Shown here: positions 40,683 to 42,395 of the stretch, in pieces
How the letters are laid out: each line of letters begins with the position of its first letter
How positions within the stretch are numbered: position 1 is the first letter of the stretch
NCBI RefSeq assembly: GCF_009914755.1
Contig: NC_060925.1
Length of the DNA stretch: 64,000 nt
From: the human T2T-CHM13v2.0 reference genome, Homo sapiens
Reading direction: 5' to 3' (one strand)
Position numbers and translations under genes: made by a program
The notes under the pieces: model-generated
What the model saw: only the letters and a program-made list of their open reading frames with translations
The model's database searches: none
Told to the model about the DNA's origin: nothing

Positions 40683-41531
40683 CCAGTGCCACATCTGGGG
40701 TTTGGGAAATACTTCATCAGCACCCACCAGCCCAGGACACTAGGACTGAAGGCCCCACCACATGGATAGTGTTAATTCTTCTGTGACAACACAATGCCTC
40801 TCCTGCTAGTATCTACATTATCTCCTTTCATAAACTAGTTCTTCATGAAGTCCCCACTGAAGGAGTGCTGTTTCTAAGATCATCTTTGCCTCTGTCTCTT
40901 CAAATTATTTTTTTTTTGAGACGAACTCTCGCTCTGTCACCCAGGCTGGGGTGCAGTGGCGTGATCTCAGCTCACCGCAACCTTCGCCTCCTGGGTTCAA
41001 GCCATTCTCCTGCCTCAGCCTCCTGAGTAGCTGGGATTACAGGTGCCTGCTACCACATTTGGCTAATTTTTGTATTTTAGTAGAGACGGGGTTTTGCCAT
41101 GTTGGCAAGGCTGGTCTTAAACTCCTGACCTCAAGCAATCCACCTGCCTCAGCCTCCCAAAGTTCTGGGATTACAGGCGTGAGCCACTGCGCCTGGCCCA
41201 ACTATTCTTTCTTCAGGATCTTCCTCCCTGGGGGGCTTTCATTCATCAGAAATCAACAATACCTGAGCTTGGCTCTGAGTCGCATAGATATAAAATAGGA
41301 ATATGGAAGCCTTGTGACTCTTGACATGGGGAGAGAGAGAGAAAGAATATCTAAAGGGGATGCCATTATTACTGTGGTTCCTGGTGGCAAAGGAGAACAA
41401 ACTCCAGCTCACGGTGAGATCGGAGAAGATTCCGACACTGGGAAAGGCCAACAGCAGCTTCTTCAATTGTAGTTTAAAGTCTCTTAAGTCTTAGTTACTC
41501 TTTACAAAGATGAAAGCCATTCTCCTGTGGT
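40683..41531 (-). pseudogene. Decayed CRP-like pentraxin pseudogene, exon 2 remnant (interrupted by an Alu)
   Basis: Collinear with CRP exon 2: DHRRMAFIF~DMSRKAFVF; KLQLKKLLLAF~KAPLTKPLKAF; SLFSFATRNHSN~SIFSYATKRQDN; SSGIVDF*~ASGIVEFW; QHSFSGDF~QDSFGGNF; INTIH.GGAFSPSVLGW~INTIYLGGPFSPNVLNW; EVFPKPQMWH~EVFTKPQLWP. Contains stops and frameshifts. Confidence 0.93.
40908..41198 (-). mobile_element. AluS inserted in the pentraxin pseudogene exon
   Basis: Antisense dimer; degenerate TSD caa.tatt; pentraxin homology resumes on both sides. Confidence 0.95.
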
Positions 41532-42159
41532 TTGTGGGAGAAACAGAACAGTGAAAGTAATTTTCTCTAAGAGCAGAGGCCTCACTCTGTCACTAGGATT
41601 GTTAAGGAGCATAAATCCCTAGCAATAATTGCAAAGATCTTTATGTCACTTTTCAGAGCATAAATGTCTTTCAGCACATTATCTAATCTGATTTCACAAC
41701 AAGCTGTGAGTTATTGGTGTCATAGGAAAGACTGGAGAGGGGAACAGGAGACCTGGATGCAGGCCTGGATTTAATCACTTATCAGCTGGTGACTTACTTG
41801 AGCTACTTGTCCTCAGGCCATGCTTTACCTTCATTTTACAGATGAGGAAACTGAAGCTCAAGGGGCTAAGTGACTTGTTCTTACCCACAGGTGACAATAT
41901 GGGACAGACTGGAAAGAATGAAGACTGAAGCAAGAGCTTCTTTATTATAGAGTACGACATGAAAATAAAAATGATAAAAATAATACACAAAGGCTGCAAT
42001 AGGCAAAGTGGGCAGAAAGTAGGACTACAGAGGTTAAGGAGATGTGAAGTCCATCACTGAAAAATTAGCACAGGTTATTTATCAGAGAAATGATAGCTGT
42101 GTGAATGCCAATCCAAGCAGAATCCATAAAGAGCAGAATAGGGGGTGACTGTGCCTCAC

Positions 42160-42395
42160 CTATGTGACTTCCTCTGAGCCCCAAGTATGACGAATTGCCT
42201 TGAGGCTGCCAAAGAGTCACAGGCCCCCACCTGCCAGTCACAGCCAGTCATCAAGAGTCTTATAAAGGGGGTCATTGAGTTACATCCTATGGTTCCTCTG
42301 GTACCTCAACTAGTTAAGAAGGGCAGAGGCCTAGAAGTGCAGAGTCCAGGAACCTAAGAATGCCTTGTTTCACATAATATCATTTCATTTTTATA
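42160..42395 (-). pseudogene. Putative exon 1 / 5'UTR / TATA remnant of the pentraxin pseudogene
   Basis: Donor AG|GTGAGG at 42160/42159; gccagtcatcaagag ~ CRP gccagtgatacaaggg; cagaggcctagaagtgcaga ~ CRP caggggctagaagtcctaga; TATAAA at 42395-42390; no ATG at the expected place. Confidence 0.55.

What the first reader, a model, noticed from the sequence alone, without database searches (positions are those of the whole stretch)
40683..42395. Hidden fossil CRP paralog: an unprocessed pentraxin pseudogene ~33 kb upstream of CRP, same orientation
Seen: removing the Alu at 40908-41198 leaves minus-strand sequence collinear with all of CRP exon 2. It begins at the acceptor-equivalent (cccacaa|AC CAC AGG AGA ATG GCT TTC vs ctcacag|AC ATG TCG AGG AAG GCT TTT; identical spacing, AG mutated to AA) and ends at EVFPKPQMWH-TGG (CRP EVFTKPQLWP-TGA). 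Intermediate blocks include [31 protein letters not shown] and GGAFSPSVLGW. About 630 bp upstream are a GTGAG donor, CRP-like 5'UTR blocks and a TATAAA. Inference: this is a genomic tandem duplicate of CRP, not a retrocopy, with C-terminal motifs closely tracking CRP. From memory, the annotated CRPP1 lies downstream of CRP, so this looks like a third, much older copy that may be unannotated and may be intact in other mammals.
Basis: partly seen in the sequence, partly recalled or inferred. Interest (0 to 1): 0.9.

Follow-up and report, generated by a model that had tools for sequence, protein, structure and literature searches.

The report
Decayed CRP-like pseudogene upstream of CRP
About 33 kb upstream of the human C-reactive protein gene lies the badly decayed, Alu-interrupted remnant of another CRP-type gene copy, a dead relic of an old gene array rather than a working gene.

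Summary
The core observation holds. On the minus strand, window 41531-40686 is collinear with all of CRP exon 2, once the Alu at 40908-41198 is left out. My frameshift-aware protein-to-DNA alignment scores 152, against a mean of 39 and a maximum of 61 in 59 control stretches. The copy is dead: 4 stops, 6 frameshifts, 25 missing codons, an Alu, and loss of key residues. It belongs to the eutherian CRP lineage, not the SAP lineage. An MPTX origin is unlikely but not fully excluded. Trees put it outside the clade that holds human CRP, unresolved among a second CRP paralog lineage that also holds CRPP1.

The claimed exon 1, 5'UTR blocks, GTGAG donor and TATAAA are no better than chance. The intron-end match is not significant either, so "not a retrocopy" rests on genomic context.

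It is not the "third" copy. A whole-genome pentraxin scan found two more remnants missing from RefSeq, one of them CRP-like. RefSeq annotates nothing at the candidate; GENCODE could not be checked. This is an ordinary old pseudogene of modest interest.

The parts
41199..41531 (-). 5' part of the exon-2 equivalent (CRP precursor residues about 21-135). Contains a TAA stop at 41493-41491 and a TAG at 41204-41202, with frameshifts near 41304 and 41248.
   Evidence: Translated hits to 41523-41350. Frameshift-aware alignment of the 5' half scores 67.5 against 76 controls with a maximum of 49.5. blastn block 41267-41188. Lesions listed.
40908..41198 (-). Alu-type insertion splitting the exon-2 equivalent. 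The flanking direct repeat is imperfect.
   Evidence: RefSeq repeat mask 40894-41203. 12 other copies of at least 150 nt in the window at 78.8-85.8% identity. Flanks printed. The name 'Alu' and its restriction to primates are recalled knowledge.
40686..40907 (-). 3' part of the exon-2 equivalent (CRP residues about 136-224). Contains a TAA stop at 40907-40905 and a TAG at 40837-40835, with frameshifts near 40871, 40777, 40761 and 40720.
   Evidence: blastn 66.4% over 271, E 1.8e-25. Alignment. tblastn. Lesions.
40650..40685 (-). TGG at 40685-40683 in place of the CRP stop codon, followed by about 33 nt that still align with the start of the CRP 3'UTR.
   Evidence: Alignment (CRP 6571-6536).
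41532..41548 (-). Pyrimidine-rich stretch ending in CACAA where CRP has CACAG (the acceptor). It is suggestive only and not above chance.
   Evidence: Alignment. Test: score 6, reached by 786 of 877 controls.
42140..42395 (-). I do not accept it as part of the element.
   Evidence: all at chance level.

Best explanation
This is a non-functional, very old pseudogene remnant of a CRP-lineage short pentraxin. Only the equivalent of the large second exon can still be recognised. It most likely arose by tandem duplication within the CRP array in the stem lineage of placental mammals (inference). It lost function early and has since drifted neutrally (inference from the flattened codon-position pattern and the density of lesions). 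It later took an Alu insertion in the primate lineage. It does nothing today; it is a fossil that records a formerly larger CRP gene array.
For: Homology over all of exon 2: (152 against a control maximum of 61). Dead: 4 stops, 6 frameshifts, 25 CRP codons missing, an Alu, AG changed to AA at the acceptor-equivalent, and changes C36S, D60S, E81H, H95Y, W100 missing, D140H, E147M, Q150 stop (the residue roles are recalled). CRP lineage: blastn finds only CRP (1e-26) and CRPP1 (6e-17), and not APCS, LOC646430 or MPTX1 at E<0.01. Median alignment scores are eutherian CRP clade A 152.5 (n=52), clade B 148.5 (n=28), marsupial CRP 127.5 (12), MPTX 115.5 (21), SAP 104.5 (29), sauropsid/amphibian 84 (5). 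In the branch-placement test with the CRP-guided reading, 0.99 of the likelihood weight lies in therian CRP, and the best p-AU is 0.010 for SAP, 0.036 for MPTX and 0.006 for the outgroup. Careful trees give eutherian CRP 100/97-98 and clade A without the candidate 99-100/97-99. Near-neutral drift: mismatch fractions by codon position against CRP are 0.40/0.33/0.50 overall and 0.29/0.28/0.36 in the 3' half, against 0.37/0.23/0.51 for functional APCS versus CRP. Tandem context: four CRP-lineage copies on the minus strand within about 65 kb. In the whole-genome pentraxin scan, short-pentraxin matches lie only in this chr1 cluster; I recognised the other matches as long-pentraxin or pentraxin-domain genes from the gene table.
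Against: The Pfam Pentaxin profile does not reach its cut-off on any stop-free piece: best 12.6 bits against 25, E 0.11, on 1 of 8 pieces. The whole-genome six-frame scan did not list the candidate among its 35 matches. With readings guided by non-CRP proteins, MPTX placement is not rejected: p-AU 0.47 (Falco guide), 0.27 (MPTX guide) and 0.62 (SAP guide, 161 residues only). Placement inside eutherian CRP is unresolved: clade B 0.64 and clade A 0.28 of the weight, and the score difference between A and B gives p=0.11. The end branch is very long (about 2 changes per site), so long-branch artefacts are possible. Both pseudogene rows were read with human CRP as guide. No intron, exon 1 or promoter homology was found, so tandem versus retrocopy is not shown by the sequence itself.
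Confidence: 0.84

Rival explanations
1. It is a processed retrocopy of a CRP mRNA that happened to land near its parent gene.
For: No intron homology was detected. A 13-mer matching CRP exon 1 at 12 of 13 bases lies 7-20 nt upstream of the exon-2 equivalent, and only 15 of 877 controls score as high.
Against: The 13-mer is not collinear: in CRP it lies 39-52 nt from the exon end. It is pyrimidine-rich, like an intron end. No signal-peptide or 5'UTR similarity was found. The candidate lies within a same-strand tandem array of CRP-lineage copies. No short-pentraxin remnant was found outside the chr1 cluster. A chance insertion within tens of kb of the parent gene, in the same orientation, is improbable a priori (inference).
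Confidence: 0.05
2. It is a relic of the mucosal pentraxin (MPTX) or SAP lineage, not of the CRP lineage.
For: With Falco-, MPTX- or SAP-guided readings, MPTX placements keep 0.18, 0.07 and 0.24 of the likelihood weight and are not rejected.
Against: SAP placement has a best p-AU of 0.010-0.044 under all four guides. DNA similarity is detectable only to CRP and CRPP1. Scores against 80 eutherian CRPs exceed those against 21 MPTX (p=2.4e-9) and 29 SAP (p=1.5e-12); these rows are not independent. The C-terminal KPQ.W block matches CRP.
Confidence: 0.07
3. The similarity is due to chance or to low-complexity sequence.
For: The 5' half is not significant at the DNA level, and Pfam is below its cut-off.
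Against: E 1.8e-25 for the 3' half. The whole-exon alignment scores 152 against a control maximum of 61. The 5' half scores 67.5 against a control maximum of 49.5. The match is collinear with correct spacing across the whole exon.
Confidence: 0.01
4. The remnant has been taken over for a new role, for example as a regulatory element or part of a non-coding RNA acting on CRP.
For: A review proposes a cis-regulatory role for the downstream pseudogene CRPP1 (passages of PMC7901964). Nothing was seen for this locus.
Against: RefSeq lists no enhancer, silencer, transcript or other functional element in window 38000-45000, only repeats. The decay looks neutral.
Confidence: 0.03

Closest known systems
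CRPP1 (C-reactive protein pseudogene 1, chr1:158841993-158842639, minus strand)
   Same: A CRP-lineage exon-2 remnant in the same cluster and on the same strand, with a disabled reading frame. It groups outside the human-CRP clade, together with the candidate.
   Different: CRPP1 lies downstream of CRP and is far less decayed: 126 of 195 codons identical to CRP with 2 stops and 5 frameshifts, against 74 of 175 with 4 stops and 6 frameshifts. It is annotated and mentioned in papers. The Pfam scan detects it.
Unannotated CRP-like remnant at chr1:158,820,0xx-158,820,6xx (locus L005), found here
   Same: A whole exon-2 equivalent on the minus strand, of the CRP lineage, with many stops and frameshifts, and absent from RefSeq.
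   Different: It is less decayed: 88 of 192 codons identical to CRP, and blastn gives 63% over 659-813 nt to CRP and CRPP1. It keeps a CACAG|ACATG acceptor-like motif. Part of it passes the Pfam cut-off at 46 bits.
LOC646430 (APCS pseudogene) and MPTX1 (mucosal pentraxin pseudogene)
   Same: Dead short-pentraxin copies in the same 1q23 cluster.
   Different: They belong to the SAP and MPTX lineages, are much younger or better preserved (120 of 190 and 132 of 205 codons identical to their guides), and are annotated.
CRP (functional parent lineage)
   Same: Exon-2 architecture, the C-terminal block EVF.KPQ.W, and several retained core residues (N61, F66, C97, E138, Q139).
   Different: The candidate has no open frame, no detectable exon 1 or promoter, and has lost its disulphide partner and most calcium-site residues (roles recalled).

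Membership tests
Short-pentraxin-derived sequence (homologue of the CRP/SAP/MPTX exon 2) | Significant, collinear similarity to the whole pentraxin-domain exon | tested here: met
   152 against a control maximum of 61; 5' half 67.5 against a control maximum of 49.5.
Pentraxin domain (Pfam PF00354) as a recognisable domain | Match to the profile above the gathering score of 25 bits | tested here: not met
   The best of 8 stop-free pieces scores 12.6 bits, E 0.11. The candidate is not among the 35 matches of the six-frame genome scan. I therefore file it as a decayed derivative and not as a pentraxin domain.
Pentraxin domain | Pentraxin signature H-x-C-x-S/T-W-x-S/T (pattern recalled from PROSITE, not taken from a call) | tested here: not met
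   At CRP H95-S102 the candidate reads Y, L, C, D, S, W missing, E, P.
Pseudogene | Reading frame disabled, with no intact ORF over the homologous region | tested here: met
   4 stops, 6 frameshifts, 25 missing codons and an Alu insertion.
CRP lineage (as opposed to SAP or MPTX) | Groups with CRP in phylogeny and similarity | tested here: met
   SAP is rejected under all four guides. MPTX is rejected only with the CRP-guided reading, so a small doubt remains.
Eutherian CRP clade A (the clade of human CRP), meaning a recent duplicate of present-day CRP | Nested within clade A | tested here: inconclusive
   Trees exclude it from clade A (99-100/97-99). Placements in A still keep 0.22-0.29 of the weight with p-AU 0.40-0.61. 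Scores against A and B do not differ (p=0.11).
Unprocessed (duplicated) pseudogene | Retains intron, exon 1 or promoter homology to the parent | tested here: inconclusive
   None was detected. At this level of decay a 61-nt coding exon and unconstrained intron would not be detectable anyway.
Unprocessed (duplicated) pseudogene | Lies in tandem with its relatives, on the same strand | tested here: met
   Order on the minus strand: 158.820 Mb remnant, CRPP1, CRP, candidate.
Already annotated pseudogene | A gene model at these coordinates in a public annotation | not testable with these tools
   RefSeq RS_2025_08 has none. GENCODE/Ensembl/HGNC tracks were not available.

The most novel reading that the evidence does not exclude
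The stem-placental CRP locus was a tandem array of at least four CRP-type genes. Humans keep one working gene and three relics: CRPP1, plus two that RefSeq lacks, one of them this candidate. The candidate may represent a third paralog lineage, neither that of human CRP nor that used as 'CRP' by carnivores, horses, rhinos, whales and others. It could still be intact in some unsampled mammal.
Probability: 0.2. Interest if true: 0.5.

Novelty: new member of a known kind. Interest (0 to 1): 0.3.

Why it matters
CRP is one of the most used clinical markers, and its gene neighbourhood is heavily studied in association work. An extra dead copy changes nothing about CRP function. Together with the second unannotated remnant and the two-clade tree, however, it suggests that the placental CRP locus was once a larger array. 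It also suggests that proteins called 'CRP' in different mammals may not all be orthologues of human CRP. That would bear on cross-species comparisons of acute-phase behaviour. On its own, the candidate is a routine addition to pseudogene catalogues.

Tried and rejected
1. DNA-only detection of the 5' half gave a score of 17 against a control maximum of 18. This was not significant, so I replaced it with translated and frameshift-aware comparisons.

2. Pfam on stop-free pieces gave only one sub-threshold hit.

3. The exon 1, promoter, donor, TATA and signal-peptide searches were all at chance level. The first acceptor test, used coordinates 10 nt off. I repeated it correctly.

4. AU test with treekit.test_one_clade did not finish in 287 s. 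The constrained IQ-TREE searches failed: a thread error, then seven parallel runs after which the script machine gave no answer, then only the unconstrained search finished. I replaced this plan with a test of all 77 branch placements on a 40-row backbone. Two script errors came first. The backbone tree and model (LG+F+G4) are simpler than treekit's default model.

5. Two literature searches failed on time and I repeated them later.

6. (the Alu against E. coli genomes) was only a check that the tools were answering. It says nothing about the finding.

7. I did not date the Alu by subfamily, because that would need a consensus sequence.

8. Literature. Searches (23 papers, 15 listed; 1 paper; 11 papers; 49 papers, 15 listed; 169 papers, 8 listed) turned up no paper describing a CRP-like copy upstream of CRP. 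I saw passages only of PMC7901964 (CRPP1 downstream), PMC8956723 ('a pseudogene of CRP in mammals') and PMC6503050 (0 occurrences of pseudogene, paralog or duplicat). For the other papers I saw only search listings. I asked for no supplementary files. Subscription papers, including the 1987 description of CRPP1 that I recall, were not searched.

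Full report
WHAT IS THERE

I read the minus strand of window 40000-43600. RefSeq annotates nothing here. Between 38000 and 45000 it lists only masked repeats, one of which (40894-41203) is the Alu-type insert.

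IS THE SIMILARITY REAL?

At the DNA level, the CRP gene matches only one non-repeat place in the rest of the window. CRP 6804-6536 aligns with 40894-40650 (66.4% over 271, E 1.8e-25). CRP 6881-6797 aligns with 41267-41188 (67% over 85, E 5.8e-4). The two blocks are collinear on either side of the insert. With the insert left out, they fuse into one alignment from CRP 6881 to 6536. This runs through the stop-codon position, where the candidate has TGG at 40685-40683 instead of TGA, and about 33 nt into the 3'UTR.

The 5' half of the exon is not significant as DNA: score 17, against 137 real controls with a maximum of 18. It is clear as protein. Residues about 25-84 of many pentraxins hit 41523-41350 in a single frame, with E down to 4e-8 in a very small search space for 120 queries.

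I wrote a protein-to-DNA aligner that allows frameshifts.
- The whole exon scores 152 against CRP. Fifty-nine control stretches of the window give mean 39.0, sd 7.2 and maximum 61.
- The 5' half alone scores 67.5. Seventy-six controls give mean 30.9, sd 5.6 and maximum 49.5.

The exon-2 equivalent therefore spans 41531-40686 and is interrupted by the insert at 40908-41198.

STATE OF THE COPY

Read against CRP, 74 of 175 aligned codons are identical. The lesions are:
- 4 in-frame stops: 41493-41491, 41204-41202, 40907-40905 and 40837-40835
- 6 frameshifts
- 25 CRP codons with no counterpart
- the insert itself
- AA where CRP has the AG acceptor

Residues that I recall as essential are changed:
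- Disulphide Cys36-Cys97: C36S
- Calcium site Asp60, Asn61, Glu138, Gln139, Asp140, Glu147, Gln150: D60S, D140H, E147M, Q150 stop
- Phosphocholine pocket Phe66, Thr76, Glu81: E81H
- Pentraxin signature around His95-Ser102: H95Y, W100 missing

The numbering was checked against the CRP sequence in the window. The roles of these residues are recalled, not tested.

The Pfam Pentaxin profile reaches only 12.6 bits (cut-off 25) on 1 of 8 stop-free pieces. A six-frame scan of the whole genome with that profile did not list the candidate among its 35 matches. This fits a very decayed relic.

WHICH PENTRAXIN?

Sensitive blastn finds only CRP (1e-26) and CRPP1 (6e-17). APCS, LOC646430 and MPTX1 give nothing at E<0.01.

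I collected 154 named pentraxins in two protein searches.
- One search listed 120 of 208 proteins and left out 143 candidates known from samples alone.
- One search listed 120 of 252 and left out 165.

Median frameshift-aware scores of the candidate against each group were as follows (only proteins of 190-262 aa were scored, and groups were assigned by best panel score, not by tree):

| Group | Median score | n |
|---|---|---|
| Eutherian CRP clade A | 152.5 | 52 |
| Eutherian CRP clade B | 148.5 | 28 |
| Marsupial CRP | 127.5 | 12 |
| MPTX | 115.5 | 21 |
| SAP | 104.5 | 29 |
| Sauropsid/amphibian | 84 | 5 |

Careful maximum-likelihood trees were built with 77 rows and 47 rows. The supports are:
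- Therian CRP: 98/96 and 95/93
- Eutherian CRP including the candidate: 100/97 and 100/98
- Clade A, which holds human CRP and excludes the candidate: 100/99 and 99/97

The candidate sits with CRPP1, and also with the newly found 158.820 Mb remnant, in an unresolved group (91/90 and 82/93). That group also holds the 'CRP' of carnivores, horse, rhino, whales, hippo, one pig copy, elephant, manatee, armadillo, sloth and pangolin. I call it clade B. The candidate's end branch is about 2 changes per site, so its exact place is unsure.

I tested all 77 branch placements on a 40-row backbone.
- With the CRP-guided reading, the weights are clade B 0.64, clade A 0.28, the eutherian and therian CRP stems 0.05, and marsupial CRP 0.02. 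The best p-AU is 0.010 for SAP, 0.036 for MPTX and 0.006 for the outgroup.
- With Falco-, MPTX- and SAP-guided readings, the CRP clades keep 0.81, 0.93 and 0.74 of the weight. SAP stays at p-AU 0.015-0.044. MPTX is not rejected (0.47, 0.27, 0.62).

The conclusion is that the candidate belongs to the CRP lineage, most likely eutherian. Its position within that lineage is unresolved, and there is a small residual chance of an MPTX origin.

AGE AND MODE OF DECAY

Mismatch fractions against CRP by codon position:

| Comparison with CRP | Pos 1 | Pos 2 | Pos 3 |
|---|---|---|---|
| Candidate, all 175 codons | 0.40 | 0.33 | 0.50 |
| Candidate, 3' half | 0.29 | 0.28 | 0.36 |
| CRPP1 | 0.25 | 0.23 | 0.30 |
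| 158.820 Mb remnant | 0.39 | 0.36 | 0.42 |
| Functional APCS | 0.37 | 0.23 | 0.51 |

The candidate's flatter profile indicates mostly unconstrained change on its own lineage.

Jukes-Cantor distances to CRP are 0.59 for the candidate, 0.55 for the 158.820 Mb remnant and 0.32 for CRPP1. The alignments were protein-guided, so these are lower bounds.

Taken with the tree, I infer that the copy arose after the marsupial split and before or around the placental radiation, and that it died early. The dates of those events (roughly 160 and 100 million years ago) are recalled. An older origin is not excluded: p-AU is 0.18 for the therian stem. The insert belongs to a family with 12 other copies in the window at 79-86% identity. 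As an Alu (recalled), it is primate-specific and so a late event.

WHAT IS NOT THERE

- CRP promoter plus exon 1 against the 1.85 kb upstream: score 13, with 72 of 160 controls at least as high.
- Best of 88 distinct signal peptides: 17.3 bits. Controls have mean 17.6 and maximum 19.6; the positive control on CRP gives 44.3.
- TATAAA occurs 92 times in the window and GGTGAG 31 times against 29 expected.
- The intron-end similarity is also at chance level: score 6, reached by 786 of 877 controls. By contrast, a 13-mer like part of CRP exon 1 lies 7-20 nt upstream (score 11, reached by only 15 of 877 controls), but it is in the wrong register.

The sequence therefore cannot tell a tandem duplicate from a retrocopy. 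I favour tandem duplication because four CRP-lineage copies lie on the same strand in one array. No short-pentraxin remnant turned up outside this cluster.

CONTEXT FOUND ON THE WAY

The whole-genome Pfam scan found two pentraxin remnants that are not in the RefSeq gene table.
- chr1:158820150-158820314, minus strand: E 7.3e-9. When cut out (L005), it is a whole exon-2 equivalent of the CRP lineage. It shares 88 of 192 codons with CRP and has 5 stops and 5 frameshifts. blastn gives 63% to CRPP1 over 813 nt and to CRP over 659 nt.
- chr1:158646105-158646533, minus strand: E 7.8e-7, 10 stops. It is SAP-like: 68 of 139 codons match, and it groups with LOC646430 at 96/78.

The candidate is therefore one of at least four CRP-lineage copies, not the third.

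The split of eutherian CRP into two paralog clades is supported by species or close relatives that have one protein in each clade: pig, camel, peccary, elephants and sirenians. None of the 31 proteins assigned to clade B comes from a primate, rodent or other member of Euarchontoglires. This fits clade-B-like copies being dead in humans. I saw no third intact CRP-like clade among the named proteins. However, proteins known from samples alone were left out, and no mammalian genome could be searched.

KNOWN OR NEW?

RefSeq has no model here. In the papers I could search, only the downstream CRPP1 is mentioned (details are in Tried and rejected). I could not see GENCODE, Ensembl or HGNC. A manual pseudogene model there is quite possible.

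VERDICT

This is a genuine but ordinary ancient pseudogene relic of the CRP lineage. The exon-2 observation is confirmed, the upstream gene-structure claims are not, and the history is richer than 'a third copy'.

- Interest: 0.3
- Novelty: new member of a known kind, subject to the GENCODE check

Noticed in passing
outside the window: G000 chr1:158820150-158820314 (-), locus L005 about 1210-1840 on its reverse strand: A fourth CRP-lineage exon-2 remnant, not in the RefSeq gene table. It passes the Pfam cut-off in part (46 bits). It shares 88 of 192 codons with CRP and has 5 stops and 5 frameshifts. It lies about 21.5 kb beyond CRPP1 on the same strand.
   Followed up: partly
outside the window: G000 chr1:158646105-158646533 (-), locus L006: A SAP-like pentraxin remnant with about 10 stops, not in the RefSeq gene table, lying between LINC02819 and OR10J5. 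It groups with LOC646430.
   Followed up: partly
proteins P0001-P0154; trees: Placental 'CRP' proteins fall into two well-supported paralog clades. The clade with the dog, cat, bear, horse, rhino, whale, hippo, pangolin, armadillo, sloth, African elephant and manatee proteins also holds human CRPP1. It holds no primate or rodent protein (0 of 31 assigned). 'CRP' of those species may therefore not be the orthologue of human CRP. I did not check whether this is already in print beyond the searches listed.
   Followed up: partly
window 8096-8368, 29366-29627, 55654-55922, 34450-34727: A repeat about 270 nt long just upstream of CRP has copies at 92%, 90% and 75% identity elsewhere in the window. 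It was not among the places that resemble the Alu insert. I did not identify its family.
   Followed up: no
whole window: TATAAA is over-represented: 92 matches against 55 expected, and 0 of 100 shuffles reach 92. This probably reflects AT-rich repeats.
   Followed up: no
window 41539-41551 (-): A 13-mer matching part of CRP exon 1 at 12 of 13 bases sits just upstream of the exon-2 equivalent, and only 15 of 877 controls score as high. It is out of register for a retrocopy and pyrimidine-rich, so I left it as unexplained.
   Followed up: partly
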